A DNA stretch of 64,000 bases from Dysgonamonadaceae bacterium (GCA_031257875.1 JAIRNV010000214.1:3746-67745), one strand, 5' to 3'; numbered from the stretch's first letter, positions 23,482-60,584 are shown. Numbers and translations: made by a program. The notes: generated by a model from the sequence alone, not told the origin.

Positions 23482-23610
23482 GGCTGTGTCGGACGATATC
23501 TTTCAACAAAGCAGCGACATATTGCGAATGATTATGCCTTCATCAAATTCCCCCGCATGCTATGCTAAGTAATGCGCAATAAACAAGATATTGCAGTTTT
23601 AAAACTTTTC

Positions 23611-23698
23611 CTCCGTGTCTCTCCGTGAAATCCACTCCGTGAAACTCCGTGTTGTAAAAATTATTAAACATAGCGTTTCACGGAGGGACACGGAGTTG
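23611..23698. repeat. CTCCGTG/CACGGAG palindromic repeat element
   Basis: Four CTCCGTG then two CACGGAG; inverted near-copy at 28363-28430; related element at 37178-37250. Confidence 0.85.
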
Positions 23699-23777
23699 AT
23701 TGTTACATGTTATTTATTTTTTATTCCTTAATAATTTAATTCATAATAAAAATGAACAGATTTTTTGTGTTCATAAT

Positions 23778-23845
23778 AATGCTTCATAGCGTTCTATGAA
23801 GCATTCATAGAACGCTATAAATGGTTCGTAGAACGCTGTAAAATA
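23778..23845. repeat. Three-unit 21-bp array with dyad core C(A/G)TAG-N4-CT(A/G)T
   Basis: Units at 23783, 23804, 23825; the first forms a perfect 12-bp stem AATGCTTCATAG-CGTT-CTATGAAGCATT. Confidence 0.75.
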
Positions 23846-23953
23846 GTCGGATAAAATTGAAGCCCCGTTGTTGTATTTTGTCATTCCCGCCTGCACTGGA
23901 ATGATACCGTAAAATACCGCAAATAGGGTATTCCGTAAACGACCGGTTCCCCT

Positions 23954-23961
23954 TATCTTTG
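23954..23961 (+). promoter_or_regulatory. -7 promoter motif upstream of the nitrogenase-like pair
   Basis: TATCTTTG. Confidence 0.6.
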
Positions 23962-24010
23962 CACCATTAATTATATCAACAATAAGAACATTATTATACG
24001 CCACACGGAA

Positions 24011-25528
24011 ATGGGAAAAATTAATCTGAAAACAACAGTTGTAGAAAGTCGGGAGCAACGTCTGGGAACAGTTGTCGCCTGGGATGGGAAAGCTTCCAAA
24101 CTGTCCGAAGCCTCCCTGTATTCGAGTGGATGCGGTGGAGACGGGAAAGGATGTGAATTGTGCGAAATTCGAGGCCCGTTCAGTCAAGGCTCGGTATGTA
24201 GCGAGCAAATGGTTGAGTGCCAGGCAGGCCATGTGCGCGATGCGGTATTGATACAACATGCACCTGTTGGCTGCGCCCTGGGGCAGGTCGATTATAACTC
24301 CCTTTATCGAAACGGACTGGCAATGAGGAATCAGCCGGTCGAAAACCTTCGGGTGACCTGTTCGAATCTTATTGAAAGTGATATGATTTTCGGAGGGAGC
24401 AACCGCTTGGCTCAGTCAATACAGGATGTTTATGACCGCTACCGGCCTAAGGTTATATTTATCAGTACATCGTGCGCTACCGCCATCATTGGCGATGATA
24501 TTGACGGGACAGCCACGGAATATGAAGAAAAACTGGGTATACCGGTCATCCCTCTGCATTGCGAAGGATTCAGGTCGAAACACTGGAGTACTGGATTTGA
24601 CTCTACTCAACACGGGATTTTGCGCCAGATTGTACGCAAAAATCCTGAAAAACAGGGAGACCTTGTGAATGTCATAAACTTATGGGGGTCGGATGTATTT
24701 ACTCCCATACTGGCAGAATTGAATTTAAGGGTAAATTATGTAGTCGACCTTGCTACCGTGGAAGATTTGGCTCAAATGTCGGAAGCGGCATGTACGGTAG
24801 GTTTTTGTTATACTTTGTCTTCTTACCTGGCAGCAGGCCTGGAGCAGGAATATGGCGTTCCCGAAATAAAAGCGCCTCAACCTTACGGCTTTGCCGGAAC
24901 CGACGCATGGATTCGGGAAATAGGACGTGTAACGGACAGAGAAGAATTAGCGGAAAGTTATATCGCAAAAGAACATGCTCGGGTAAAGCCGAAACTGAAA
25001 GAACTGAAAAAGAAACTAAAAGGACTGAAAGGTTTTGTTGCCACAGGTTCTGCTTATGCACACGGGTTGATTTCAGTACTGCGCGAACTGGGTATTGAAA
25101 CCGATGCGTCGCTGGTATTCCATCATGACCCTGTTTATGACAGCGGCGACTCCCGCCAGGATTCTTTGGGGTATCTGATCGAAAACTATGGAGATATAGC
25201 ATCATTCAGTGTGAGCAACCGTCAGCAATACCAGTTTTATGCCCTCTTGCAGAGAACGCACCCCGACTTCATCCTGATCCGGCACAACGGCCTGGCTCCG
25301 TTAGCCTCCCGCCTGGGGATTCCGGCAGCGCCATTAGGCGATGAACATATCGCCGTGGGCTATAACGGCATGATAAATCTGGGAGAAACCATACTTGATA
25401 TTATTGCCCATAAAAAGTTTCATGAAGACTTGTCGCAACACGTAAAACTGCCTTATAAAAAATGGTGGCTCAATCAGGAAGATCCTTATATCTTAGCTAA
25501 AGAACCGGATTTAATAGAAACAATCTAA
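24011..25528 (+). CDS. Nitrogenase-like component 1 alpha subunit (Group IV, NfaD/MarD-like)
   Basis: P-cluster-type Cys in GSVCSE, HAPVGC, STSCATAIIGDD; CEGFRSKHWSTGFD; candidate cofactor ligands VGFCYTL and LIRHNG. Confidence 0.88.
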   Translation: MGKINLKTTVVESREQRLGTVVAWDGKASKLSEASLYSSGCGGDGKGCELCEIRGPFSQGSVCSEQMVECQAGHVRDAVLIQHAPVGCALGQVDYNSLYRNGLAMRNQPVENLRVTCSNLIESDMIFGGSNRLAQSIQDVYDRYRPKVIFISTSCATAIIGDDIDGTATEYEEKLGIPVIPLHCEGFRSKHWSTGFDSTQHGILRQIVRKNPEKQGDLVNVINLWGSDVFTPILAELNLRVNYVVDLATVEDLAQMSEAACTVGFCYTLSSYLAAGLEQEYGVPEIKAPQPYGFAGTDAWIREIGRVTDREELAESYIAKEHARVKPKLKELKKKLKGLKGFVATGSAYAHGLISVLRELGIETDASLVFHHDPVYDSGDSRQDSLGYLIENYGDIASFSVSNRQQYQFYALLQRTHPDFILIRHNGLAPLASRLGIPAAPLGDEHIAVGYNGMINLGETILDIIAHKKFHEDLSQHVKLPYKKWWLNQEDPYILAKEPDLIETI

Positions 25529-25535
25529 AAAAAAT

Positions 25536-26894
25536 ATGTCGGTAAAAAGTAGTAAGATGATAGAAAAAACCAACTCTATCAGCCAGGTTCGATATGCCTG
25601 TTCAATAGGGGCGTTATATACCGCTTCATCCATTCCGGGAGTTATCCCTATCACACACTGCGGACCGGGGTGTGCAGACAAACAATTCATGGGACTTGCC
25701 TTTTACAACGGGTTTCAAGGGGGCGGATATGGCGGAGGCGCCGTTTCACCAAGCGTGAATGCCAGTGAAAAAGAAGTCGTTTTCGGAGGGACAGAACGTT
25801 TGCGCGAACTTATTAAAGCCTCCCTCAAAATAATGGATGCAGACCTGTTTGTTGTGTTAACCGGATGTATTGCCGACCTGGTGGGTGATGATGTACCGTC
25901 TGTAGTTTCCGAATTTCAGGAAAAAGGCGTGAACATTGTTTATGCAGAAACGGGCGGTTTCAGGGGAAATAATTTCATTGGACACGAATTGGTTGTAAAA
26001 TCCATTATTGATCAATTTGTAGGTTCGTATAACGGAGAGAAAAATCCACACACTGTAAATATCTGGTCTTTGCTGCCTTACCAGAATCCATTCTGGCGGG
26101 GCGATTTAAGTGAAATTAAGCGGATACTCGAAGGCATTGGTTTAAAGGTGAATATTCTTTTCGGTCATCAGTCGGGCGGAGTGGAAGAATGGAAAAATAT
26201 TCCCAAAGCCGGATTTAATCTTGTGCTGTCTCCCTGGTTGGGGCTGAAAACTGCGCAGTACCTTGAAAAGAAATACAATCAGCCGTTTTTGCATATACCC
26301 GCAATTCCTATCGGGGCAAAAGAAACCTCCCGTTTTTTACGTGAAGTTTCGGAGTATGCCGGTTTGGACAGGGAAAAGACCGAGCAGTTTATTCAATCCG
26401 AAGAAAAAGAATATTACTATTATCTCGAACACTTTTCAGATTTCTATTCGGAATACTGGTGGGGGTTGCCTGCAAAATTTGCGGTGGTGGGCGACAGTGC
26501 ATACAACCTGGCATTGACGAAGTTTTTAGTTAATCAATTGGGATTGATTCCCTCTTCGCAAATCATTACAGAAAATACCCCCGATGAATATAAAGATGGA
26601 ATAAGGGAAGAATACAGGCGCATTGCCGATGATGTTACCGCCGGTGTTGATTTCGTTGAAGATGGCTATACGGTAGGTAAAATACTGGAAGAAACAGACT
26701 TTGGACACAAACCGCCTATCATTTTTGCTACGACATGGGACAGGGACGTTGCTAAAAAAATAGGCGGATATATTGTAGAAGTCGGATTTCCGGCATCATA
26801 CGAGGTAGTAATTGCCAGATCTTATGTCGGATATAAGGGGGCATTGAATCTGTTGGAGAAAATATTTACTACCGTAATCGGTAGAAGCGCATAA
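25536..26894 (+). CDS. Nitrogenase-like component 1 beta subunit (Group IV, NfaK/MarK-like)
   Basis: RYACSIGA, THCGPGC, EKEVVFGG, VLTGCIADLVGDD, ETGGFRG. Confidence 0.88.
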   Translation: MSVKSSKMIEKTNSISQVRYACSIGALYTASSIPGVIPITHCGPGCADKQFMGLAFYNGFQGGGYGGGAVSPSVNASEKEVVFGGTERLRELIKASLKIMDADLFVVLTGCIADLVGDDVPSVVSEFQEKGVNIVYAETGGFRGNNFIGHELVVKSIIDQFVGSYNGEKNPHTVNIWSLLPYQNPFWRGDLSEIKRILEGIGLKVNILFGHQSGGVEEWKNIPKAGFNLVLSPWLGLKTAQYLEKKYNQPFLHIPAIPIGAKETSRFLREVSEYAGLDREKTEQFIQSEEKEYYYYLEHFSDFYSEYWWGLPAKFAVVGDSAYNLALTKFLVNQLGLIPSSQIITENTPDEYKDGIREEYRRIADDVTAGVDFVEDGYTVGKILEETDFGHKPPIIFATTWDRDVAKKIGGYIVEVGFPASYEVVIARSYVGYKGALNLLEKIFTTVIGRSA

Positions 26895-26994
26895 TCAACC
26901 CCGGTTGGTGCGAGGCCTCGATGACAGACGGCGGGTACAACAATTTGAAATACCTTAACATAAGGTACATTAGGCTTGGATAAAATTTTTTTCG

Positions 26995-27002
26995 TACATT
27001 TG
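26995..27002 (+). promoter_or_regulatory. -7 promoter motif upstream of ugd
   Basis: TACATTTG. Confidence 0.6.
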
Positions 27003-27026
27003 CGCCATAAATTTTAATAACTTTCT

Positions 27027-28334
27027 ATGAATATAGCAATTGTAGGAACCGGCTATGTCGGTTTAGTTACAGGAACCTGTTTTTCGGAAATGGGGATTAA
27101 TGTAACGTGTGTTGATGTGGACTCCGTTAAAATACAAAATCTTAATCTAGGCCTCATTCCCATTTACGAACCGGGGTTGGATGCTTTGGTTAAAAAAAAT
27201 ACCGGCGCCGGACGGTTAAAATTTACAACCGACCTGACGTCTTGTATCCACGAAGTCGAGGTGCTTTTCAATGCCGTGGGAACTCCGCCCGACGAAGACG
27301 GTAGCGCCGATTTACGGTATGTATTAGACGTCGCGCGCACTGTCGGACAAAACATCAACAAGTATCTTCTGGTAGTTACCAAAAGTACGGTGCCTGTCGG
27401 TACGGCAGCCAAAGTGAAGGCCGCAATCCGGGAAGAACTGGACAAAAGAGGCGTGTCCGTTCCTTTTGACGTGGCTTCCAATCCCGAATTTCTGAAGGAA
27501 GGCACGGCTATCAAAGATTTCATGGGACCCGACAGGGTGGTTGTCGGCACGGAAAGCGAAAAAGCAAAGAACTTGATGGAACGTTTATATAAACCGTTCA
27601 CCCTGAATCATTACCGGATGATATTCACCGATATTCCTTCGGCCGAAATGATCAAATACGCTGCCAATGCCATGCTGGCCACCCGGATTTCTTTCATCAA
27701 CGACATTGCCAATTTATGTCGGTTGGTCGGTGCGGATGTAAATATGGTTCGAAGCGGGATCGGGTCGGATTCCCGGATAGGCAGTAAATTTTTATATCCG
27801 GGGTGTGGTTATGGCGGTTCCTGTTTCCCGAAAGACGTGAAAGCGCTGATAAAAACCGCCGCTCAAAACGGGTACGAAATGCGGGTGCTGAAAGCTGTAG
27901 AAGCAGTGAACGAATATCAGAAAACCATTCTGTTCAGGAAGTTACAAAAGGTATTCAATAACGGACTTTCAGGGAAAACCGTTGCTTTGTGGGGATTGGC
28001 TTTCAAACCGGAAACCGACGATATGCGGGAGGCGCCGTCGCTGGTCTTGATTGAATTACTTCTGAAAGCCGGTTGTAACGTAAGGGTTTATGATCCGGTT
28101 GCCATGGAAGAATGTAAACGGAGATTAGGCGACGGGGTGACGTATTCGCGCGACATGTACGATGCAGTCTTGAACGCCGACGCCTTATTGCTTCTGACCG
28201 AATGGAAAGAGTTCCGTCTTCCGGCGTGGGAAGTTTTGAAAAAACTGATGAAGAAGCCGGTAATTGTCGATGGACGAAATATTTATGATAAAAATGAACT
28301 GAACGCCGCAGGTTTTGTTTATGAGCATATTTAG
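27027..28334 (+). CDS. ugd: UDP-glucose 6-dehydrogenase
   Basis: GTGYVG, KSTVPVGT, SNPEFLKEG, GYGGSCFPKD, WGLAFKPETDDMRE. Confidence 0.96.
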   Translation: MNIAIVGTGYVGLVTGTCFSEMGINVTCVDVDSVKIQNLNLGLIPIYEPGLDALVKKNTGAGRLKFTTDLTSCIHEVEVLFNAVGTPPDEDGSADLRYVLDVARTVGQNINKYLLVVTKSTVPVGTAAKVKAAIREELDKRGVSVPFDVASNPEFLKEGTAIKDFMGPDRVVVGTESEKAKNLMERLYKPFTLNHYRMIFTDIPSAEMIKYAANAMLATRISFINDIANLCRLVGADVNMVRSGIGSDSRIGSKFLYPGCGYGGSCFPKDVKALIKTAAQNGYEMRVLKAVEAVNEYQKTILFRKLQKVFNNGLSGKTVALWGLAFKPETDDMREAPSLVLIELLLKAGCNVRVYDPVAMEECKRRLGDGVTYSRDMYDAVLNADALLLLTEWKEFRLPAWEVLKKLMKKPVIVDGRNIYDKNELNAAGFVYEHI

Positions 28335-29493: not shown

Positions 29494-29806
29494 AGATATT
29501 TCGGGTAACGCGCCCATAACCGCCATGCGCATGGCTTTCGCCGAAAAGACAGTAACGCCGGCCGTCTTCTACATTATTTGTTACCCGATTAGTTACATCT
29601 ACCTGCGCAAGGGTGTGTATTTCCAATTGTTTCTTCCGGTTCAAAAACAGGTTTGCCATCAGTGAGGTTTGCTTGGCATTCTACATTTTCATAAAGTTGC
29701 GGGAATAGCTGTCAAGTATTTGAAACGGGCAACGAAAGCGCACCTGGTTTTGCCATCCATTGCGCGGTGCGTAACATGCGAGAGTAATAATTCCCCGCAA
29801 ACAGGG

Positions 29807-30086
29807 TTAAAAGCCTCGACTTGGAAGCAAAAAACTCCGAAGTCGGGGCTTTTTTCTTCAAATTCGGAGCAAAAAGCCTCGAACTCGGAGCAAAAAGCCT
29901 CGAAGTCGAAGCAAAAAGCCTCGAACTCGGAGCAAAAAGCCCCGAAGTCGGAGCAAAAAGCCCCGAAGTCGGAGCAAAAAGCCTCGAAGTCGAAGCAAAA
30001 AGCCTCGAAGTCGGAGCAAAAAGAGACAAAGTTGTCAGTAAAAGAGACAAAGTTGTCACAAAAAGTACCGAAGCCGGAGTAAAAAG
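29807..30086. repeat. 21-bp tandem array (about 13 units): A-tract plus small variable dyad
   Basis: CAAAAAG at 29870, 29891, 29912, 29933, 29954, 29975, 29996, 30017, with degenerate units on both sides. Confidence 0.93.
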
Positions 30087-30224
30087 TTTTGTTGTGGAAA
30101 AATAAAGGTTGAAATGAGTGAAATATATGGATTGTCACAACAGCGAAAAAAAAAATTCCGTTCCCTTATTTCACACATTACGCTATGAAGAGATTCAACC
30201 CGGAAGGCGCCGTCATCAAAACTA

Positions 30225-50537: not shown

Positions 50538-51794
50538 ATGAAAAAAATTTTATTCAAAAACTTATCTACAGCCTATATTGCTGTATTCGCAGGTTTAACG
50601 GTATGTTGCTCGGGTGGCGGCAAAAAATCACAGGAAAAACAGGAAATCGACGACAATGCGGTAGAAGTAGGCATTCTTCATTCTTTAAGCGGAACGATGG
50701 CTATCTCGGAAGTATCGTTGCGGGATGTACTGCTGATGGGTATTGAGGAAATCAATAATTCGGGAGGCGTTCTCGGCAAAAAAATTGTTCCCAGAGTGGT
50801 AGACCCCGCTTCCGACTGGGATTTATTCGCGGAAAAAGCAAAGGAATTGCTGACAAAAAATAAAGTCAGCGTAGTCTTCGGATGCTGGACTTCCGTATCC
50901 CGCAAGTCGGTATTGCCCGTATTTGAAGAATACAAAGGGCTTTTATTTTATCCCGTCCAGTACGAAGGCCAGGAATGTTCGCCGAACATCATCTATACGG
51001 GAGCAACCCCCAACCAGCAGTTAATTCCGGCGGCGCAGTACCTGATGAGCAAAGAGGGCGGCGAATACAAACAGTTCTATCTTCTGGGAACGGATTACGT
51101 ATTTCCCCGCACGGCCAATACCATACTTAGAAACTACCTGCTGTCGCAGGGCATTCCCGAACAGCATATTATTGAAGAATATACCCCTTTCAATCACCAG
51201 GATTACCAGACGATTGTTTCAAAAATAAAACGCTTTGCAGCTTCGGGCAAGGCATGCGTATTAAGCACCATCAACGGCGACAGCAATGTTCCCTTTTACA
51301 AAGAGTTTGCCAATCAGGGGCTAAGCGCGTCACACTGTCCGGTCATGGCTTTTTCCGTTGCGGAAGACGAGTTAAGGTCTATGGATACCGAATTTTTGGC
51401 CGGCCACCTGGCTGCCTGGAATTATTTCCAGTCAATAGCAACGCCCGATAATCTCCAATTTGTCGAAAATTTTAAAAACTATTGCAAGACAAATAATCTT
51501 CCGGGTAAGGACGCGCGTGTTACGGACGACCCTGTCTGCTGGTCATATACGGGACTTTATTTATGGAAGGCAGCCGTGGAAAAAGCCGGTTCGTTTGAGG
51601 TGGAAAAGGTTATCGCCGCCCTTTCGGATATGGAGTTTCAATCGCCTTCGGGACCGGTAAAAATGCACCCCGACAATCATCATCTGGCCAAGAAAGCTTT
51701 GATAGGAAAAATCAGGGCTGACGGACAGTTTGATATAATATGGGAAACGGATGACATTGTTGTTCCCGAACCGTTTAGCGAATTTGCAAAATAA
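50538..51794 (+). CDS. urtA: Urea ABC transporter substrate-binding protein
   Basis: VGILHSLSGTMAISE, DPASDW, FGCWTSVSRKSVLP, YPVQYEGQE, GTDYVFPRT, NGDSNVPF. Confidence 0.96.
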   Translation: MKKILFKNLSTAYIAVFAGLTVCCSGGGKKSQEKQEIDDNAVEVGILHSLSGTMAISEVSLRDVLLMGIEEINNSGGVLGKKIVPRVVDPASDWDLFAEKAKELLTKNKVSVVFGCWTSVSRKSVLPVFEEYKGLLFYPVQYEGQECSPNIIYTGATPNQQLIPAAQYLMSKEGGEYKQFYLLGTDYVFPRTANTILRNYLLSQGIPEQHIIEEYTPFNHQDYQTIVSKIKRFAASGKACVLSTINGDSNVPFYKEFANQGLSASHCPVMAFSVAEDELRSMDTEFLAGHLAAWNYFQSIATPDNLQFVENFKNYCKTNNLPGKDARVTDDPVCWSYTGLYLWKAAVEKAGSFEVEKVIAALSDMEFQSPSGPVKMHPDNHHLAKKALIGKIRADGQFDIIWETDDIVVPEPFSEFAK

Positions 51795-51799
51795 AAACA

Positions 51800-51850
51800 G
51801 TTACGAGTTACAAGTAATCCGACTAACTCGTAACTCGTAACTCGTAACTA
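51800..51850. repeat. Inverted heptamer repeats (GTTACGA / CGTAACT)
   Basis: gttacgagttacaag ... ctcgtaactcgtaactcgtaact. Confidence 0.8.
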
Positions 51851-51857
51851 AATAAAA

Positions 51858-52763
51858 ATGGGCATCGATCAAATACAGTACATATTCAGCGGACTAAGTC
51901 TGGGCAGCATACTCATTCTCGTGGCATTAGGCCTGTCTATCATATACGGTCTGGCAGGCATTATAAACATGAGTCACGGGGAATTTATGATGATAGGCGC
52001 CTACACGACATATTGTATTCAACAGTTATTTATACTGTATTTGCCGCAGGCATGGCTCGATATGGCATTTTTCATATCGTTGCCCCTGTCGTTCATGGTA
52101 GCTGGTCTTTTCGGGCTAATCATCGAACGGCTTATCATCAGGCACCTGTACAGCCGTCCGCTGGAAAGTCTGCTGGCCACCTGGGGAATCAGTCTGATTC
52201 TTATACAGATAGCGCGCAATCTGTTCGGCGATTTGACTGCGGTAAAAGCGCCCGCCGTTTTGTCCGGAGGCCTCCAAATTGCGGAAGGACTGATGCTTCC
52301 CTACAACAGGTTATTTATCATGGCTCTTACGGTTGCAGTTTTTATCTGCGTTTATTTTCTCTTTCAGAAAACGCGGCTGGGTATAAAAATAAGAGCCGTA
52401 ACTCAAAACCGCAATATGAGCGCCTGTGTCGGCATATCCACCAAAAAAATTGATATGATTACGTTCATGATCGGTTCCGGGCTGGCCGGTATAGCCGGTT
52501 GCGCCATAACGCTCATAGGAAATGTTGTTCCGAATATGGGGCAGACCTATATCGTCGACTCTTTTTTGGTTGTCGTTTCGGGCGGCGTCGGCAAACTGGC
52601 CGGCTGTGTCGTATCCGGTCTCGGAATAGGTATTTTTTCTAAAATATTTGAAGTAAACTTTGAAGCGGTTTACGGGAAAGCGCTTGTACTCATATTTATT
52701 ATCATATTCCTGCAGTACAGGCCGAAAGGCCTGTTTCCAGACAAAGGAAGAGCGGATGAATAA
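51858..52763 (+). CDS. urtB: Urea ABC transporter permease
   Basis: GLSLGSIL, INMSHGEFMM, LYSRPLESLLATWG, RAVTQNR, YIVDSFLVVV.GG. Confidence 0.95.
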   Translation: MGIDQIQYIFSGLSLGSILILVALGLSIIYGLAGIINMSHGEFMMIGAYTTYCIQQLFILYLPQAWLDMAFFISLPLSFMVAGLFGLIIERLIIRHLYSRPLESLLATWGISLILIQIARNLFGDLTAVKAPAVLSGGLQIAEGLMLPYNRLFIMALTVAVFICVYFLFQKTRLGIKIRAVTQNRNMSACVGISTKKIDMITFMIGSGLAGIAGCAITLIGNVVPNMGQTYIVDSFLVVVSGGVGKLAGCVVSGLGIGIFSKIFEVNFEAVYGKALVLIFIIIFLQYRPKGLFPDKGRADE

Positions 52764-52813
52764 TGATTAATGGTTAATGATTAATGATTAATGATTAATG
52801 ATTAACCACTAAC
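52761..52813 (+). repeat. Heptamer repeat (TAATGAT)n starting at the urtB stop
   Basis: About 7 units read directly. Confidence 0.85.
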
Positions 52814-52837
52814 AGGCACGAGGTAAAGTGTATTACA

Positions 52838-53105
52838 GACGGTTTCGCCGCGCGTCGCAAACGCCAAAAAGTCGTCAGGACGTTTTCGTACTGGTACGAA
52901 AGTTCCAAAAAGTCGTCAGGACGGTTTCGTACTAATACGAAAGTTCCAAAAAGCCGTCAGGACGTTTTCGTACTAATACGAAAGTTCCAAAAAGTCGTCA
53001 GGACGGTTTCGTACTAGTACGAAAGTTCCAAAAAGTCGTCAGGACGGTTTCGCCGCACGTCGCAAACGCCAAAAAGTCGTCAGGACGGTTTCGCATATCT
53101 GCAAA
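52838..53105. repeat. 41-bp tandem array (6 full units plus 1 partial): constant 25-nt part and variable dyad-forming part
   Basis: Units at 52838, 52879, 52920, 52961, 53002, 53043, 53084; constant CCAAAAAG(T/C)CGTCAGGACG(G/T)TTTCG. Confidence 0.95.
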
Positions 53106-53153
53106 TTAACAAGTTCTGTAATTTGCGTAACATGAGTTAATCATTAAATAAAC

Positions 53154-54197
53154 ATGCACAATAACAAATTATTATATATCCTGTTTGGAATCATCTTTTT
53201 GATTCTTCTTCCCGTAGCAAACGTAGCCGGCATGATAGACGCGGGAACGATGGCGCTGTGGGGCCGCTACCTTTGTTTTGCCATTGCAGCCATAGGGATA
53301 GACCTGATATGGGGATACACGGGCATCATGTCGATGTGTCACGCATTCTTTTTCTGCCTCGGCGCCTACGGTCTGGGCATGTTTATGACTGTCTCCAATT
53401 TGCCGGAAGGACAGGCCGTCCCCGATTTTATGTCATGGAACAGAGTCGAATCCCTGCCGTTTTTCTGGATACCGTTCCAAAATTTCTTTTCTGCAATCGT
53501 TTCATGCCTTGTCGTTACAGGTATTTTCGCATTCCTGTTTGGTTACTTCATTTTCCGGCGCAGGATAAAAGGCGTATTTTTTGCTATTATAACACAGGCG
53601 TTTGCATTGGCCATGTACCTGCTTTTTTCCCGCAACGAGACTTTGCTCGGCGGATCAAACGGGTTAACTAACTTCAAATATATACTGGGATTTGATTTAC
53701 ATTCCGGAAACGTCAAATTAGCGCTCTATCTGATAACGGCAGTATTTCTTATCCTTATTTTCTTTTTATCGAAAAAATTAACGGAATCCAAATTCGGGAA
53801 AGTGCTTGCCGGTATACGCGACAGCGAATCGCGCCTGAGATTTACCGGATATAAAGTGGTCAGTTACCAGACGGTCATATTTATTATCGGGGCGCTTATC
53901 GCCGCCATCGGAGGAATGTTGTATTTGCCGCAGACAGGCATCATCACCCCCGGACGAATGGATGTGAAAGCGTCCATAGAAATGCTTGTATGGGTAGCCC
54001 TGGGAGGACGCGGAAACTTGAAAGGCGCTGTGACAGGAGCGCTTATTGTAAACCTGCTTTACAATATTTTCACGTCGTTAATGCCGGAAGCATGGCCCTA
54101 TATATTGGGCGCACTGTATATCATTACGGTGCTGTTTTTGAAAAACGGCATAGCCGGACTGTTCGGGTCGCGCAGCACGCCAATCCGTAATTCGTAA
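53154..54197 (+). CDS. urtC: Urea ABC transporter permease
   Basis: GRYLCFAI...DLIWGYTG, PDFM.W, GGSNGLT, IRDSESR.RF.GY, WVALGGRG. Confidence 0.95.
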   Translation: MHNNKLLYILFGIIFLILLPVANVAGMIDAGTMALWGRYLCFAIAAIGIDLIWGYTGIMSMCHAFFFCLGAYGLGMFMTVSNLPEGQAVPDFMSWNRVESLPFFWIPFQNFFSAIVSCLVVTGIFAFLFGYFIFRRRIKGVFFAIITQAFALAMYLLFSRNETLLGGSNGLTNFKYILGFDLHSGNVKLALYLITAVFLILIFFLSKKLTESKFGKVLAGIRDSESRLRFTGYKVVSYQTVIFIIGALIAAIGGMLYLPQTGIITPGRMDVKASIEMLVWVALGGRGNLKGAVTGALIVNLLYNIFTSLMPEAWPYILGALYIITVLFLKNGIAGLFGSRSTPIRNS

Positions 54198-54262
54198 CTG
54201 CACCGAAGGCAGACGCGGGATAAATCACAAATAATTCGTAATTTTGCCCTAAAATTTGAAAT

Positions 54263-54496
54263 ATGGAAAAAACATTGGACAGAGAAGCAAAAAACAGAAT
54301 AGGATACATGAATTTTATAATCATCCGGTTTGCACGCGGATTTAAGATGCTCATTCCTGAAGCGTTTAAATATTTAGACTGCTACGGAGGACTTGATTTC
54401 CTGTACAGTCATTATGAGTATGAACATACACAGTCGGAGCATAATACTTGCATGACTTTACTCAGGGTGTGCCGTAATAATGGAGGATGGCTGTAA
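54263..54496 (+). CDS. DUF3791 family protein
   Basis: AFKYL..YGGLDFL..HYEYEHT.S, C.NNGG.L; own -7 motif TAATTTTG at 54239. Confidence 0.8.
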   Translation: MEKTLDREAKNRIGYMNFIIIRFARGFKMLIPEAFKYLDCYGGLDFLYSHYEYEHTQSEHNTCMTLLRVCRNNGGWL

Positions 54497-55177
54497 ATGA
54501 AAGTATTTCACGGAAGCGATATTAGAATTGAAAAAATTGACCTTGCCAAAGGTAGCGAGTTCAAGGATTTTGGTCGTGGCTTTTATGTTACCAATATTCG
54601 TAAACATGCGCACCAAAGAGCAATCGATGTTTCTTTTGTGCATGGAACAACCCCGGTCGTAACCGAATTTGACTATCTCGAAGCTTATCCTGTTACTATG
54701 AATTTGGCGGTTAAGCATTTTGAAAATGTTTCCGAAGAATGGGTAAAATTTATCATTATGAATCGCAGCAGGGAAATAAATCATCCCGCTCATGCATTCG
54801 ATATCGTTGAAGGTCCCATAGCTAATGACTGGATAACTTCACAAATAGAACGCTATCAAAAAGGCAAAATCACAATTGAAAAACTGATTGAAAAACTCAC
54901 ATATCGTGAGCAGACTCATCAAATTTGTTTTTGTACTCCGGAATCTTTGTGGGCGCTCGAACTCATTGATGATGATATTCGTTTCGATATTGAAGATATT
55001 ACGAATGCTATTGTTGAAGTCTTAACAATAGAACGTAATATGGATGAACTTACGGCAATCCGCACACTGTTTAGCTCTGCCGTATATGAACAACTGTCCG
55101 GTTCGGACACAAAAATGTATCTATCATCATGGATTGATATTTACTCAATGTTAATACAGGAACTCGACAGCAAATGA
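54497..55177 (+). CDS. DUF3990 family protein (predicted ADP-ribosyltransferase-like fold) with helical C-terminal extension
   Basis: MKVFHGS, KDFGRGFYVT, EEWVKFI..NR, DIVEGPIAND, QICF.T. Confidence 0.85.
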   Translation: MKVFHGSDIRIEKIDLAKGSEFKDFGRGFYVTNIRKHAHQRAIDVSFVHGTTPVVTEFDYLEAYPVTMNLAVKHFENVSEEWVKFIIMNRSREINHPAHAFDIVEGPIANDWITSQIERYQKGKITIEKLIEKLTYREQTHQICFCTPESLWALELIDDDIRFDIEDITNAIVEVLTIERNMDELTAIRTLFSSAVYEQLSGSDTKMYLSSWIDIYSMLIQELDSK

Positions 55178-55218
55178 ACATCATTTACAGTGATTAATCA
55201 CGAATTATTATCTTATAG

Positions 55219-55259
55219 CCTCCCCCCAACCCCCTCCAAAGGAGGGGGTTGGGGGGAGG
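55219..55259. repeat. Perfect 19-bp C/G-rich inverted repeat with a 3-nt loop
   Basis: CCTCCCCCCAACCCCCTCC-AAA-GGAGGGGGTTGGGGGGAGG. Confidence 0.95.
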
Positions 55260-55275
55260 TCAATCATTATTCATT

Positions 55276-56028
55276 ATGTTATCCATATCCAATTTAAATG
55301 TTTCTTTCGGCGGCGTTCAAGCGCTTAACCTTACTCATTTTGAACTGAAAGACAAAGAACTAAGAGTGATAATAGGTCCTAACGGCGCCGGCAAGTCCAC
55401 CTTTATGGATGTTCTCTGCGGCAAAACCGTCCCCACCGGAGGTTCTGCCTGTTTCAAAGGGACAAACCTGATAGGAAAGTCGGAAATAGAAATCGCACGC
55501 ATGGGGATAGGGCGCAAATTCCAGAAACCGTCCGTCTTTGAAGGCCTGTCTGTCTTCGACAATCTCATGCTGGGATTAAAAGGGAAAAAAGGATGTTTCT
55601 CTTCCCTGTTTTTCAAACTCAAACCGGAGCAGAAAAACAGAATCATCAGTGTGGCAAAGCGCGTCAATTTATACGAAAAACTGTATGCACCGGCCGGTTC
55701 ACTGTCGCACGGACAAAAGCAGTGGCTTGAGATTGCCATCGTCCTGCTGCAGGAACCCAAACTGATGTTGATAGACGAACCTGCCGCCGGCATGTCGGAT
55801 GCGGAAACGGAAAAAACGGGCGAATTGCTGTGTGAACTGGCTCAGAATAACGGTGTGATTGTGATTGAACACGATATGCACTTTGTGAAGCAGATTGCAC
55901 AGGACAAAGTAACCGTGCTGGTACGCGGGGAAATACTGACCGAAGGAAGTTTTGACGAAGTGAAAAACAACCGGGACGTGATTGATTGCTATCTGGGGAC
56001 TCCCGAATCGGCGCAGACAAGAAAATAA
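55276..56028 (+). CDS. urtD: Urea ABC transporter ATP-binding protein
   Basis: GPNGAGKST, GIGRKFQKPSVF, LSHGQKQWLEI, DEPAAGM, IEHDM. Confidence 0.95.
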   Translation: MLSISNLNVSFGGVQALNLTHFELKDKELRVIIGPNGAGKSTFMDVLCGKTVPTGGSACFKGTNLIGKSEIEIARMGIGRKFQKPSVFEGLSVFDNLMLGLKGKKGCFSSLFFKLKPEQKNRIISVAKRVNLYEKLYAPAGSLSHGQKQWLEIAIVLLQEPKLMLIDEPAAGMSDAETEKTGELLCELAQNNGVIVIEHDMHFVKQIAQDKVTVLVRGEILTEGSFDEVKNNRDVIDCYLGTPESAQTRK

Positions 56029-56122
56029 GTTTTTGAGTTACCGGTTGTACTGTATTTCAACCTCACTGCATCATTACGAACTGCGAAGCAGTGAAGCAAT
56101 CCGGAATAAGTACGGTTCATTC

Positions 56123-56162
56123 AAAAAAAAACGTTGCCGCAGTGATGTGGCAACGTTTTTTT
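56123..56162. terminator. Bidirectional intrinsic terminator between urtD and the convergent surface-protein gene
   Basis: A-run, CGTTGCC(G)CA-GTGA-TG(T)GGCAACG, T-run. Confidence 0.85.
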
Positions 56163-56238
56163 CCAAAACACTATCCTTTACAGTAAGTGTAAAAGCAGAT
56201 TAACAATTCAAAACAGTATTTTTATAAAAAAGAAAATA

Positions 56239-58638
56239 CTATATCACGGCTTTCTTTACCCATCCGGAGCTGCCTTTGATGACAAGAACACCTTTCGGAA
56301 GCCCGGAAACAGACGCCTTTCCCGCCGGCTTGTCCAGACTGTAGAGCAACTTCCCGCCGACAGAATAAATACCGACCTTTTCGGCTGCAGGCGAAATTAC
56401 ATGCAAAGCCCGACTGTCTCCATATACCTGTACGGACTGTGCGAACAGCGGCGCAATACCCGAACCGGAATCCCTGGTTACCTTTATATGGTACTCCTTT
56501 TTTGTATCGTCCTCGGCAGTTACCGTAACCGTAAAAGTCGAATCACTGTTCAGATCATGCTCTTTATTGCCGTTAACTTCCGCCTCTTCATGGCTTGGCA
56601 GTGCAACAATAAAAATATACTCCTGTTCACCGGGAACAGTAACCGAATAGTTCGCAGTATCGGGATGGAAAGCAGGCGAAAGTTCGCCGCCAGGCGTCAC
56701 GGACAGTAACTTCAGGGTAGCATCGGAAGAGTAAGACGCCAGTTTAACCGTATATATCAGCTCGTCGGTACGTCCCGGATCAAATGTCTTTACCCTGACG
56801 GAATAATTGTCGTTATCTTTAATCACACTCCATGTATAGGAAACAGATGTTTCTGCTGTAGTGGCATCTACTGTAATATCCTCCAGTTTTACATTCGTAG
56901 GAAAAGACGCCCTGTAACCATCGTACTTATCGCCTTCCGGTGTCACTGTATGAGAGAAAGTACCGGCTCCATCTTTCAGAACAAGTTTGCTCAGTCTCAA
57001 ATTCCAGCCTTTCACCAGCGACAGCCTGTATTCCCGCTCTACACTTCCATCCCTGACCGTAAACACGGATGTGGCAAAACCCTCATCGGCTTTACCCACC
57101 GGGATTCTGAACTTATAAAGACCTTCTTTCTCTTGCGCAGACGTCGATAATTTACTGCCGCTTGGCGTTGCTTCTGACAGCCCGATCAGTTCAACTTTGG
57201 CATGCGTATCGTTAACCGTAAGCCATACAGAGATGGAATCCTGTGCATTATACTTCAGCGTAAGCGGATAGATTAAAGTATCGGAATCGAAATGGAAATG
57301 GAACTCACTATGATCTAAATTCGTCGTACCGACACTGTCCTTCAAAACAAAACTCTTCAGCGACACCTCCGGATATCTCACCGTTATTTTATAGGTTTTT
57401 ACAGTCGTTCTGCCATCCAGACTTAACACATTAACTTCGTAATAAGCCGGATCGCCTTCATGAAACTCATACTTCAAGTTGCCTATAAAGATGGTGTCCG
57501 CGTTGCTGTTAGAGCCTTTGACTGTGTCCCATACGTAACCGACAACAGCATCAGGAGCAAACTCCCGTGGGATAGTAACCTTATATTCGAATGTATTTCT
57601 ATTAAACTCCTTGTCCAGCTTATAGAACCCATCCTTGGAATCCAGCAGATAAAGACTGTCAAGTTTCGGAGTACTGCCGATTACTTTGTTCTTTTGTTCA
57701 TCTTCAAAAGACTCGGCGGGCCGTGCAAAAATCTTCACTTTGTACTCACTCTTCGTTGTCCCGTCTTCAGCCGTTACCGTGATCGTAACAAACGTGCCCG
57801 GCTCAATGGAATATACGGAACAGTCACCGGCAAACTTGTACTCTTTCGCGGCAATTTCATTGCCCAACTGCCCAACCTTAACCTTACTAAACATGTCCTT
57901 TTGCCTCAAAACAAGAGCAAGCTTCTGATCCGCATTGACGGAATCTTTTTCCACATAGTTGTCTCCCGGCTCGACAGTTTTGATAGAATCATTAAGGTAC
58001 TTGAAAAAAACGGAATCTTTTCTCTCCCCTTCTTCCTTAGCAAAAAGAGCTGCTTTTTTAAATTCCTCTTCCCATTTAGCAGTGTCAGTACTCGCAACCA
58101 CAGCCAGTTTGATAAGGCTGGAAATGCTGCTTTTGGCAACCCTGGTGACAGTAAGCTTATATTGATAAGCTGTCCCTGCAACCGTAAAACTGAGCGAACC
58201 GTCAATCTGGTCCGACGCATCCTTAAATCTGATTACATAAACTTTGTCATAATGACCGTCATACTTACCATCTTTGAATCCGCCGTCTCCACCATCTTCT
58301 TTGTATATTGCGGGGATAATCTCATCACCCTTCTTAACCGTTACGGGTATCGAATCCTTCGTGTTCAAGTTTAGCAAGGCCGGTTCCGGCAACCATTTGA
58401 CACCAACATAGAAAGTGTCTGCCCTGAAAGGAATCTGGGCGGTGTAATCCGTTACCGATGCAATAAAATTGGAAGGAGACACCGTAAGAGGGTGTGCCAC
58501 ACCATCTTTAACCCAATACACACCAATTTCCTTTGGCACACGTATTGTGTCACTGCCATTCGCCATCGTCTGTAGCGTTACCGTGAACAGCCCGACAAGC
58601 GCCATCCACATCAAAAAAAAGTTTTTGTTTCTTTTCAT
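56239..58638 (-). CDS. Cadherin-like beta-sandwich repeat surface protein with T9SS-like C-terminal sorting domain
   Basis: Signal peptide; VTAEDGTT..Y.V repeats; DATLKLLSVTPG.LSPAF.PDT..YSVTVP; C-terminus IYSVGGKLL...VLVIKGSSGWVKKAVI. Confidence 0.85.
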   Translation of the reverse strand: MKRNKNFFLMWMALVGLFTVTLQTMANGSDTIRVPKEIGVYWVKDGVAHPLTVSPSNFIASVTDYTAQIPFRADTFYVGVKWLPEPALLNLNTKDSIPVTVKKGDEIIPAIYKEDGGDGGFKDGKYDGHYDKVYVIRFKDASDQIDGSLSFTVAGTAYQYKLTVTRVAKSSISSLIKLAVVASTDTAKWEEEFKKAALFAKEEGERKDSVFFKYLNDSIKTVEPGDNYVEKDSVNADQKLALVLRQKDMFSKVKVGQLGNEIAAKEYKFAGDCSVYSIEPGTFVTITVTAEDGTTKSEYKVKIFARPAESFEDEQKNKVIGSTPKLDSLYLLDSKDGFYKLDKEFNRNTFEYKVTIPREFAPDAVVGYVWDTVKGSNSNADTIFIGNLKYEFHEGDPAYYEVNVLSLDGRTTVKTYKITVRYPEVSLKSFVLKDSVGTTNLDHSEFHFHFDSDTLIYPLTLKYNAQDSISVWLTVNDTHAKVELIGLSEATPSGSKLSTSAQEKEGLYKFRIPVGKADEGFATSVFTVRDGSVEREYRLSLVKGWNLRLSKLVLKDGAGTFSHTVTPEGDKYDGYRASFPTNVKLEDITVDATTAETSVSYTWSVIKDNDNYSVRVKTFDPGRTDELIYTVKLASYSSDATLKLLSVTPGGELSPAFHPDTANYSVTVPGEQEYIFIVALPSHEEAEVNGNKEHDLNSDSTFTVTVTAEDDTKKEYHIKVTRDSGSGIAPLFAQSVQVYGDSRALHVISPAAEKVGIYSVGGKLLYSLDKPAGKASVSGLPKGVLVIKGSSGWVKKAVI

Positions 58639-58945
58639 TTTCTTAAAATTTTTAATTAATAAAACATTTGATTAACTCACACGAATCAACAGTCCGGTCA
58701 ATATGCGTATAAAACCTGCGGTGGGAAAGGACAGGATATAAAATAGCGCCACATAATTATACAACTGTATAGCCTTTTTATTAATTCCCCGCAAAGATAA
58801 ACCGAATTTCCTGAAAAACCGCATCGAAAAACGGAATACTGTACAAAAAACCCCGCTTTTGAGTACAAAACCACCATTTCTAATGCTAAACCGCCGGCAA
58901 TAAACTGAAAACGTCGATACCGGTACAAAATTCAATTTTTTTCAT

Positions 58946-58953
58946 TACCTTTG
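58946..58953 (+). promoter_or_regulatory. -7 promoter motif upstream of urtE-ureAB-ureC
   Basis: TACCTTTG; a divergent TATCTTTG on the minus strand near 58792-58799 would serve the surface-protein gene. Confidence 0.55.
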
Positions 58954-59033
58954 CTTTTGAAAAAAGTTAACAAATGAAAGCGTCTCTCCAATATCATCAA
59001 GCCGTAATTCGTAACTCGTAATTCATAATTTAT

Positions 59034-59741
59034 ATGCATCCTGAAATAATTCTTGAAACAAAAAACGTTCATGCCGGATATGGCGAAAGTCAGATCTTGT
59101 GGGGAATGGATTTAAAAGCGCAAAGGGGAAAAGTTACTACAATCATGGGACGCAACGGCGTGGGTAAAACCACCTTTTTACGCACCATCATGGGGCTTGT
59201 GCGAACAAAAGATGCGATTCTGTTCAACAACGAGGAAATACAAAAACGCTCAACTTATAAAAGGGCAAAAAAAGGTATCGGATATGTGCCGCAGGGACGT
59301 GAAATTATTTCCAAACTTACGGTTTACGAAAACATACTGATAGGCGCTGAATCGCGGAAAGATTCCGTCCGTTCGTTCGATGAAGATGAAATCTACGGCT
59401 TATTCCCTGTCCTCAAAGATTTCAGGAATCGCCTCGGAGGAAACCTCAGCGGCGGGCAGCAGCAACAGCTGGCAATAGCACGCGCACTAGCAGGAAAACC
59501 CGATCTGCTCATCCTTGACGAACCGACGGAAGGCATACAGCCCTCCATTACGATTGAAATAGCCGGCGTACTGAATAAACTGGTGGAAAAGGGACTTAGC
59601 ATCCTGCTCGTAGAGCAGAAACCGGACTTTGCACGCCGGCTGTCTGATTATTACTATATCATGGATCGCGGTAAAGTGATCCGGCACAGTGAAAAGGAAA
59701 AGATGGATTTTGATGAGTTAAAAAAACTGTTATCCGTGTAA
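59034..59741 (+). CDS. urtE: Urea ABC transporter ATP-binding protein
   Basis: YGESQIL, GRNGVGKTT, YVPQGREI, LSGGQQQQLAIAR, DEPTEGIQPS. Confidence 0.95.
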   Translation: MHPEIILETKNVHAGYGESQILWGMDLKAQRGKVTTIMGRNGVGKTTFLRTIMGLVRTKDAILFNNEEIQKRSTYKRAKKGIGYVPQGREIISKLTVYENILIGAESRKDSVRSFDEDEIYGLFPVLKDFRNRLGGNLSGGQQQQLAIARALAGKPDLLILDEPTEGIQPSITIEIAGVLNKLVEKGLSILLVEQKPDFARRLSDYYYIMDRGKVIRHSEKEKMDFDELKKLLSV

Positions 59742-59863
59742 CAGGTAAACGAGTTGACAAGTAAACGAATTAACTGTGCGCAGCAGTTAAATCCCTGACG
59801 GAGTATAAGGGAGGCGTCCAAGATGTATGGACGGAGCAATCATTAATCATTAATCACTAAAAT

Positions 59864-60517
59864 ATGAGACTTACACCAAGAGACGTGGAAAAACTGATGC
59901 TTCATACGGCATGTGTGGTGGCACAGAAAAGATTTGCAAGAGGCCTGAAATTAAATTATCCCGAAGCCATTGCGCTCATTTCCGGCCAACTGCTGGAGTT
60001 CATCAGGGAGGGATATACACTGGCCGAACTGACAGAAATGGGAACCCGCATTCTCGGAACGGACGACGTTATGCCGGGAGTTGCCGAAATGATTCATGTG
60101 GTTCAGGTTGAAGGAACCTGTGTGGACGGAACCAAACTTGTATCCGTACACAAGCCCGTATCCGGAACAAATTTAAGCCCCGAACTGGCTTTATATGGCT
60201 CCGGCCTCGTAAAATCGGCAAATCAAATCGAAACGGATAATAGTTTCAATGTTGTCCCCGGCCATGTTGAAACGATGGAAACGCCAATTGAGTACAACGT
60301 TAACCGCAAAACAGTTACGCTAAAAGTTACCAATACCGGCACCCGTCCCATCCAGGTCGGTTCCCACTGTTGCTTTGAAAAAACAAACAGCGCCTTGCAG
60401 TTCGACAGAAAAGCCAGCGCCGGCTACCGGCTAAACATTCCTGCCGGTACGTCCGTAAGATTTGAGGCAGGAGAAACAAAAACAGTAGAACTTGTTGAAT
60501 TAATGATTAATGGTTAA
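59864..60517 (+). CDS. ureA: Urease fused gamma-beta subunit
   Basis: [35 protein letters not shown]; beta part [25 protein letters not shown]. Confidence 0.93.
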
Positions 60518-60580
60518 TGTAGACGCCTGCTAATCATTAATCATTAACCATTATTTATCATTAATCATTAATCATTAAAA
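60501..60580. repeat. Inverted heptamer repeats (TAATGAT / TAATCAT) at the ureAB-ureC junction
   Basis: taatgat taatggt taatgt ... taatcat taatcat taaccat ... taatcat taatcat. Confidence 0.85.
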
Positions 60581-60584
60581 AGAT

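What the first reader, a model, noticed from the sequence alone, without database searches (positions are those of the whole stretch)
24011..26894. Stand-alone Group IV nitrogenase-like D/K pair with no H, B or EN partner nearby
Seen: alpha and beta subunits each keep three P-cluster-type Cys. The alpha also has Cys (GFCYT) and His (IRHNG) at positions I infer match the FeMo-co ligands. The pair has its own promoter motif and repeat-bounded flanks, and no nifH/nifB-like gene is in the 64 kb. Established: Group IV includes Nfa (N2 fixation reported in Endomicrobium proavitum) and Mar (methylthio-alkane reductase, which scavenges sulfur and releases ethylene or methane). Inference: an unusual nitrogenase or C-S reductase in a Bacteroidales genome that also takes up and hydrolyses urea. 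The substrate cannot be read from sequence.
Basis: partly seen in the sequence, partly recalled or inferred. Interest (0 to 1): 0.7.

Follow-up and report, generated by a model that had tools for sequence, protein, structure and literature searches.

The report
Split methylthio-alkane reductase, termite-gut Bacteroidales
These two genes encode the catalytic half of a known nitrogenase-like enzyme family that cuts carbon-sulfur bonds, so the bacterium likely uses them to scavenge sulfur from compounds such as dimethyl sulfide rather than to fix nitrogen; the matching reductase and cofactor-maturase genes lie elsewhere in the genome behind the same promoter box.

Summary
The ORFs are real: 24011-25528 (505 aa) and 25536-26894 (452 aa). 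They are MarD and MarK of methylthio-alkane reductase (Group IV-C). Best PDB hits are 9FMG/9D9U at 844 and 749 bits, against 125 and 74 bits for the next chains. All 17 checked MarD cluster and pocket residues match, and MarD nests among systems reported active. The pair is stand-alone only locally. A MarH-MarB pair lies on contig C34, and the genome also has separate Mo-nif and Fe-only anf sets for N2. Contigs from other runs support the split. marD, marH and a second Group IV nflD share a TACC-N8-GGTA promoter box with cysK, metY, metQ-like and sulfatase genes; nif and anf genes lack it. Trees suggest marDK arrived separately from marB. Lone marDK has precedent (8 of 35 fully flanked loci), and this scan noted Mar on other DNA before. 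Verdict: new member of a known family, likely sulfur scavenging. The mosaic layout and the box are modest extras.

The parts
23566..23733 (.). Genome-wide CTCCGTG/CACGGAG palindromic repeat; not specific to this locus
   Evidence: Up to about 160 blastn hits in the genome over this stretch; inverted arms 23611-23630/23676-23695; listed contigs of other runs end at or inside it
23776..23842 (.). Short ATAGAACGCTAT-type repeat/hairpin, also found in tandem downstream of anfD on C128
   Evidence: 10 pattern matches in the genome
23879..23904 (.). REP-like GTCATTCCCGC element, genome-wide
   Evidence: 164 pattern matches
23915..23930 (+). Palindromic box TACC-N8-GGTA, 23 nt before the -7 element; predicted binding site of a sulfur-responsive regulator, shared with marH (C34), nflD (C77), cysK, metY, metQ-like and sulfatase genes
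   Evidence: 20 exact sites at spacer 23 against 5 at the other 30 spacers; genes typed; not found before nif/anf genes; function inferred
23954..23961 (+). Bacteroidetes-type -7 promoter element TATCTTTG (consensus TAnnTTTG recalled)
   Evidence: sequence
24011..25528 (+). marD, alpha subunit (505 aa): P-cluster C63/C88/C155, pocket H191-WSTGFD, cluster ligands C266 and H425, R424
25536..26894 (+). marK, beta subunit (452 aa): P-cluster C22/C46/C111
   Evidence: modelled complex with MarD

Best explanation
The pair is MarD/MarK, the catalytic component of a Group IV-C methylthio-alkane reductase, and it likely cleaves C-S bonds of dimethyl sulfide, ethyl methyl sulfide or methylthioethanol to give methanethiol for methionine synthesis. 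Shown: orthology, conserved cluster ligands and pocket, a same-clade marH-marB pair on C34, a shared promoter box, and metA- and metY-type genes in the genome. Inferred from R. rubrum and heterologous work: when sulfur is short, an unidentified regulator acting at the TACC-N8-GGTA box switches on marDK, marHB and the other box genes together. MarB (or the nif-type NifB on C107) would build an [8Fe-9S-C]-like cluster held by Cys266/His425. MarH would pass electrons with ATP hydrolysis through the P-cluster. Methane, ethane or ethylene would be released, and O-acylhomoserine sulfhydrylase would fix the methanethiol into methionine. N2 fixation is predicted to be done by the separate nif and anf sets.
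For: phmmer to PDB: alpha E 3.6e-253 (844 bits) to 9FMG_A against 125 bits for the best nitrogenase chain; beta E 1.4e-224 (749 bits) against 74. 9FMG is R. rubrum MarDK2H2 (10.1101/2024.10.19.619033, passages). All NCBIfam Nif/Vnf/Anf/NifEN/DPOR/Cfb models score far below cut-off. 17 of 17 checked positions equal MarD, whereas own NifD reads SQSAGHH, AnfD SQSGGHH and the C77 paralogue IWASGFD. 73-75% identity to D proteins of R. hungatei, Propionispora sp. 2/2-37 and P. oryzae, whose IV-C systems were active in PMC13753814 (matched by organism name and gene layout, not accession). C34 H hits 9FMG_D at E 2.8e-155 against 1e-83 for NifH. It is 86-92% identical to the H gene directly upstream of D in 6 of 6 Bacteroidales loci whose upstream side is held (L077 is cut at D). 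C34 B has radical-SAM and NifX domains and passes TIGR01290. Box statistics and gene types; two sites outside the training set (cysK on C193, CBS-like on C2) score 37.5 and 29.1 while nif/anf upstream regions score 0.6 or less. HTS/MetA hit on C56. Modelled D-K complex ipSAE 0.92, best control 0.00, contacts agree 94% or more, partner pLDDT 91 or more (the mark was reached by 51 of 78 solved and 2 of 108 mismatched pairs; a like complex is solved, so this shows likeness only).
Against: No activity or expression was measured. PMC13753814 states that the residues defining MAR specificity are unresolved and that the Cys/His ligands are shared across Group IV. 5 of its 20 IV-C systems fell under the activity cut-off, and the R. 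palustris Mar2 homologue prefers other substrates. That C34 and C234 share a cell rests on binning (84.7% complete, 1.26% contamination) plus both stretches being held by the same four runs. marB and marDK have discordant trees, so their functional pairing is inferred. Only 5 of the 20 exact box sites (8 with the three nitrogenase-like genes) head clear sulfur genes; about 6 head TonB/SusC-like receptors of unknown cargo (read by eye). In distant families a similar palindrome precedes feoAB in 4 of 11 sampled loci. No NfaD sequence was in my tree.
Confidence: 0.87

Rival explanations
1. A Mar-clade C-S reductase specialised for another organosulfur substrate (for example dithia-alkanes or a host- or protist-derived thioether), like R. 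palustris Mar2.
For: Mar2 is inactive on DMS and EMS and more active on ethanedithiol (10.64898/2026.08.20.746119, section read). Specificity residues are unresolved. No Bacteroidales IV-C construct was found in my supplement searches.
Against: The protein sits in the core clade with the Rhodopseudomonas BHDK-operon copies (68-70%) and tested systems; the more divergent paralogues (43-57%) change the pocket (HWSSGWD, IWTTGFD) while this one does not.
Confidence: 0.07
2. An N2-reducing alternative nitrogenase of the Nfa (Group IV-A) kind.
For: NfaD shares the six P-cluster Cys and the Cys/His ligand pair with MarD (PMC13474568, passages). The host is a diazotroph with urea uptake and urease.
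Against: R. rubrum MAR cannot fix N2. Nitrogenase Val70/Gln191/His195 are replaced exactly as in MarD. The box is shared with sulfur genes and not with nif/anf. The genome has NifD and AnfD above cut-off.
Confidence: 0.02

Closest known systems
Rhodospirillum rubrum methylthio-alkane reductase MarBHDK (Group IV-C; PDB 9FMG, 9D9U)
   Same: Full-length orthologous D, K and H; all six P-cluster Cys, Cys270/His429 ligands, Arg428, His194-Trp195-Phe199 pocket, His375, Cys73-Gln74.
   Different: One marBHDK operon controlled by the LysR regulator SalR in R. rubrum. Here D-K and H-B are on separate contigs, each behind a TACC-N8-GGTA box whose regulator is unknown; the host is a termite-gut Bacteroidales.
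Ruminiclostridium hungatei and Propionispora sp. 2/2-37 Group IV-C systems (PMC13753814)
   Same: marDK apart from H/B. The R. hungatei IV-C construct used the same NflH and NflX accessions as its IV-A construct (Table S1 rows) and was active; L102 shows its DK with no H/B in 10 kb either side. 74-75% identity in D.
   Different: Bacillota hosts. Here the second DK pair is an IWASGFD type of unassigned group.
Bacteroides reticulotermitis nif-like cluster (PMC4356463, 'uncharacterized nif-like genes')
   Same: D 89%, K 87%, H 90% identical; termite-gut Bacteroidales; the same box before the operon.
   Different: Intact H-D-K-B-X operon there. The 2015 paper called these NifE/N-like of unknown function.
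Endomicrobium proavitum NfaBHDK (Group IV-A)
   Same: Group IV; shares the cluster-binding Cys and His.
   Different: Reported as a separate clade with low or no MAR activity. Not compared by sequence here.

Membership tests
Methylthio-alkane reductase (Group IV-C MAR) | D subunit falls in the Group IV-C clade | tested here: met
   Nested among P. oryzae, R. hungatei, Propionispora, HV4-5-B5C and T. thermosaccharolyticum D proteins, organisms listed as group C in Table S1 (quick IQ-TREE, SH-aLRT only, 68 of 106 D-like rows)
Methylthio-alkane reductase (Group IV-C MAR) | Six P-cluster Cys (three in D, three in K) | tested here: met
   C63/C88/C155 and C22/C46/C111 align with MarD C66/C91/C158 and MarK C32/C56/C121
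Methylthio-alkane reductase (Group IV-C MAR) | mar2-cluster ligands Cys270 and His429 with Arg428; pocket 194-HWSTGFD-200 | tested here: met
   C266, R424, H425, 191-HWSTGFD-197; the ligands alone are shared by most Group IV
Methylthio-alkane reductase (Group IV-C MAR) | Minimal gene set marBHDK in the genome | tested here: met
   marH and marB on C34 (12027-12902 and 10684-11988, minus strand), same termite-gut Bacteroidales clade in H and B trees; in trans, not in one operon
Methylthio-alkane reductase (Group IV-C MAR) | Cleaves DMS/EMS/MT-EtOH to methanethiol plus hydrocarbon | not testable with these tools
   needs an assay
Methylthio-alkane reductase (Group IV-C MAR) | Induced by sulfur limitation | tested here: inconclusive
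   Box shared with cysK/metY/metQ-like/sulfatase genes and absent before nif/anf; RNA-run contigs cannot show level or condition
Mo/V/Fe nitrogenase (NifDK, VnfDK, AnfDK) | Val70, Gln191, His195 and His442 ligand; NCBIfam cut-offs | tested here: not met
   Replaced by Cys70-Gln71, Trp192, Phe196; best model 157 bits against cut-off 486
NifE/NifN scaffold | TIGR01283/TIGR01285 membership and grouping with NifE | tested here: not met
   148 against cut-off 505, and 41 against 327 bits; own NifE lies far outside in the tree; a true nifE and a nifN-type gene lie on C36
Nfa (Group IV-A) | Grouping with E. proavitum NfaD | not tested
   No NfaD sequence was returned by my searches; exclusion is indirect, through IV-C placement
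Nfa (Group IV-A) | Ammonium-repressed 15N2 incorporation | not testable with these tools
   needs an assay
DPOR/COR (Group V) and CfbD (Group IV-B) | NCBIfam cut-offs | tested here: not met
   BchN 54/420, BchB 109/490, CfbD 40/268 bits

The most novel reading that the evidence does not exclude
A mosaic sulfur-reduction hub in a diazotrophic termite-gut Bacteroidales. One resident MarH-MarB pair powers two catalytic modules: a later-acquired MarDK and an uncharacterised IWASGFD-type NflDK-X on C77. All three loci are wired into one regulon by an undescribed, non-Rrf2 factor binding TACC-N8-GGTA next to the -33 region. One cell would then run four nitrogenase-family catalysts (Mo-nif, Fe-only anf, Mar, Nfl), and part of the 'pseudo-nif' nifH signal of termite guts would be sulfur scavenging with methane or ethylene release by bacteria.
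Probability: 0.45. Interest if true: 0.55.

Novelty: new member of a known kind. Interest (0 to 1): 0.36.

Why it matters
The enzyme class is known and solved, and split marDK has precedent, so the core finding is ordinary. It adds three things. First, a MAR candidate in true Bacteroidales: the mBio 2026 abstract names Bacteroidia, but the only 'Bacteroid*' row I found in its construct table is Bacteroides xylanolyticus, group E, which NCBI places in Clostridia; I did not see its figures or all 75 rows. Second, it gives a likely function to the termite-gut 'pseudo-nif' genes left uncharacterised in PMC4356463, with cultured B. reticulotermitis as a direct test. Third, a sharply positioned promoter box that links the dispersed genes, which I did not find described in two paper searches.

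Tried and rejected
NifEN, Nif, Vnf, Anf, DPOR and Cfb identity: rejected. Assembly artefact as cause of the split: rejected for three junctions, since contigs of other runs bridge marK-ugd (X3 26605-27953, X2 26433-27147), promoter-marD (X3 23703-25265) and marB-marH (X3, C34 10110-12990). The lon-marD join across the repeat was not bridged by any listed contig. No empty site was found: lon is followed by other genes in the congeners read (ispD/recG-like in G023 and G020, names by eye), and ugd was not found near lon in the 29 congener loci fetched. Mobile element bounded by repeats: not supported. Rrf2/CymR as the box regulator: no hit over cut-off in 43 of 43 genomes of the genus. The palindrome alone with 2 mismatches is not above shuffles (20 against 11, 19, 7); only the fixed spacing is. 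The sigma-70 promoter/terminator scan was at chance level. RNA-run contigs cover parts of marD and marK (two runs, one study) but cannot show transcription. The careful IQ-TREE run did not finish; the quick tree is cited. H alone does not resolve the origin question. No NIR_SIR or MetX hit in G000 (genome 84.7% complete), while PAPS-reductase-family hits exist, so sulfate use is unresolved. No earlier notes on this genome or on the box.

Full report
Observation. Two intact plus-strand ORFs lie at 24011-25528 (505 aa) and 25536-26894 (452 aa), between lon and a UDP-glucose dehydrogenase-like gene (neighbour names read by eye). Each is a single Oxidored_nitro domain and scores far below every NCBIfam nitrogenase, NifEN, DPOR or Cfb cut-off. 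No NifH- or NifB-family hit lies on this contig. The repeats upstream are genome-wide elements and there is none downstream.

Identity. Against PDB the alpha chain hits 9FMG_A and 9D9U_A at about E 1e-253 (844 bits; best nitrogenase chain 125), and the beta chain hits 9D9U_C/9FMG at E 1.4e-224 (749 bits; next 74). 9FMG is R. rubrum methylthio-alkane reductase (10.1101/2024.10.19.619033, passages). With offsets of +3 and +4, all 17 checked positions equal MarD: P-cluster C66/C91/C158, C73-Q74, 194-HWSTGFD-200, C270, H375, R428, H429 and H450. In a quick ML tree of 68 of 106 D-like proteins it groups with termite-gut Bacteroidales (89-91%) inside the clade that holds P. oryzae, R. hungatei and Propionispora. 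PMC13753814 (parts 1-5 of 7 read, supplement searched) reports that 15 of 20 IV-C systems were active and that IV-A, D, E and F systems were below cut-off, with one IV-A exception on DMS. I matched loci to its constructs by organism and layout only. A D-K model scored ipSAE 0.92 against 0.00 for the best of 3 controls (mark reached by 51 of 78 solved and 2 of 108 mismatched pairs); a like complex is solved, so this shows likeness only.

Partners. The genome (234 contigs, 84.7% complete) holds three NifH-like, two NifB-like and ten component-1 genes. These are nifH/D/K (C171), nifE/N (C36), nifB (C107), anfH/D (C128), anfK (C217), a second Group IV pair with a nifX-like gene (C77; 37% and 39% to this pair, pocket IWASGFD), and H plus B on C34. 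The C34 H is MarH (E 2.8e-155 to 9FMG_D). It is 86-92% identical to the H genes directly upstream of D in six Bacteroidales loci, all ordered H-D-K-B, and H and B trees put the C34 genes in that clade. On C34, H runs straight into B. Contigs of other public runs bridge B-H, marK-ugd and promoter-marD, so the split is real; the lon-side repeat was not bridged by a listed contig. Eight runs hold half or more of the stretch's words; one may be the source, and the rest come from four studies, two labelled termite gut metagenome and two with a coded organism label. Lone marDK is not rare: 8 of 35 loci with 10 kb on both sides lack H and B, one of them a 51% paralogue. The R. hungatei IV-C construct shares NflH and NflX accessions with its IV-A construct and was active.

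History. No MarK-level hit was found in 42 congeners. Two of 42 carry MarH at 94-97%, again directly followed by B, and in G025 next to the C77-type nflD; both genomes are about 75% complete. In six-taxon AU tests, D+K reject all three topologies with G000 outside the L027/L028/L071 group (p 0.004 or less, protein; 0.0007 or less, DNA). B rejects all three with G000 sister to L027 (p 0.0007 or less, protein; 0.013 or less, DNA). H alone and D protein alone are unresolved. GC3 is 0.46/0.42 in D/K against 0.56/0.57 in H/B. The likely reading is a separate transfer of marDK within the gut community onto a resident H-B module; the long B branch and few taxa weaken this. In 400 Bacteroidales drawn evenly, none had a close MarD and 3 had 38-54% relatives, so it is rare in the order.

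Regulation. A palindrome TACC-N8-GGTA sits exactly 23 nt before the TAnnTTTG element at 20 sites, against 5 over the 30 other spacers tested. It heads marD, marH, the C77 nflD, cysK, two metY-type sulfhydrylases, a sulfatase and a MetQ-like lipoprotein. A matrix built from these sites also finds a second cysK, a CBS/cystathionine-lyase pair and an encapsulin-cysteine desulfurase operon, and scores 0.6 or less upstream of nifH, nifK, nifE, nifB, anfH and anfD; scores of the training sites are circular. About six further sites head TonB/SusC-like genes of unknown cargo, and a few head unrelated genes. The box precedes the mar operons of L027 and B. reticulotermitis. It occurs in 28 of 42 congeners (backward control 0) and 15 of 60 order-level genomes (control 1). 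There, of 11 sampled loci, 4 head feoAB, 2 DUF2249 genes and 3 Cys/Met genes, so the sulfur reading is lineage-specific. No Rrf2 passes cut-off in the genus; the factor is unknown. Two paper searches found no description (listings only).

Mechanism. Inferred from R. rubrum: under sulfur shortage the dispersed genes are co-induced; MarB or NifB makes an [8Fe-9S-C]-like cluster for MarD; MarH delivers electrons with ATP through the P-cluster; a methylthio-alkane is cut to methanethiol and methane, ethane or ethylene; and O-acylhomoserine sulfhydrylase with MetA-made substrate yields methionine. Shown here are orthology, residues, partner genes and the shared box. Not shown are activity, substrate preference and induction.

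Novelty. The enzyme is a new member of a known, solved family. PMC4356463 (passages) noted the B. reticulotermitis orthologues as uncharacterised nif-like genes and linked their nifH to termite 'pseudo-nif' clones. A search for MAR with 'termite' listed four papers, none by title or abstract on termite Bacteroidales. The mBio abstract names Bacteroidia, but my supplement searches found only B. xylanolyticus (group E; Clostridia by NCBI) and none of six other Bacteroidales names; its figures and most of the 75 rows were not seen and may bear on this. 10.64898/2026.08.20.746119 (parts 1 and 3 of 6) places Mar homologues mostly in Pseudomonadota and Bacillota; its supplements are closed. PMC13474568 was read in passages only. 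Earlier scan notes found Mar in two other genomes. Interest 0.36.

Noticed in passing
G000:C77:10670-14244 (L021): Second Group IV NflD/K pair plus nifX-like gene, pocket IWASGFD, behind the same box; close relatives (81-91%) include Tannerella-labelled and unnamed metagenome proteins. Group and substrate unassigned.
   Followed up: partly
G000 genome-wide; window 23915-23961: TACC-N8-GGTA + 23 nt + TAnnTTTG composite: 20 exact sites, in 28 of 42 congeners and 15 of 60 order-level genomes; sulfur genes here, often feoAB in distant families; regulator unknown and not Rrf2 in this genus.
   Followed up: partly
L020:11925-12013 (G000:C34, 5' end of marB): A heptamer repeat (ATTATCA/ATTGTCA) lies inside the start of marB. 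Two RNA-run contigs over this part are 7 nt shorter than the reference (gap position not shown), so the start frame may vary between strains.
   Followed up: partly
L020:890-10663 (G000:C34): Downstream of marHB: glycerol-dehydrogenase-like, HisC-like aminotransferase, then box-led MetQ-like, SusC, SusD, MetQ-like genes; a possible outer-membrane uptake route for a sulfur compound.
   Followed up: partly
G000:C126:10834-14908 (L179): Box-led DsrE-like, JAB-domain, family 2 encapsulin and cargo cysteine desulfurase genes.
   Followed up: partly
G000:C171, C36, C107, C128, C217: Mo-nitrogenase and Fe-only nitrogenase genes, scattered over five contigs and interrupted by unrelated genes, whereas congeners G024 and G020 keep them clustered.
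   Followed up: partly
L071:10001-11510: B. reticulotermitis marD is frameshifted near residue 149 in this assembly, while protein P0004 from the same species is intact; likely a sequencing error.
   Followed up: no
window 50538-62294: Urea ABC transporter genes and urease, interrupted by a DUF-type gene and an 799-aa repeat-domain protein.
   Followed up: partly
window 29669-30138: Tandem 21-nt-type repeats giving spurious low-complexity ORFs in several frames; similar tracts on C128 and C190.
   Followed up: no
L039, L041, L050, L051, L092: Planctomycetaceae MAGs carry marD (B-H-D order in four of five), a phylum not named among MAR hosts in the passages I read.
   Followed up: no
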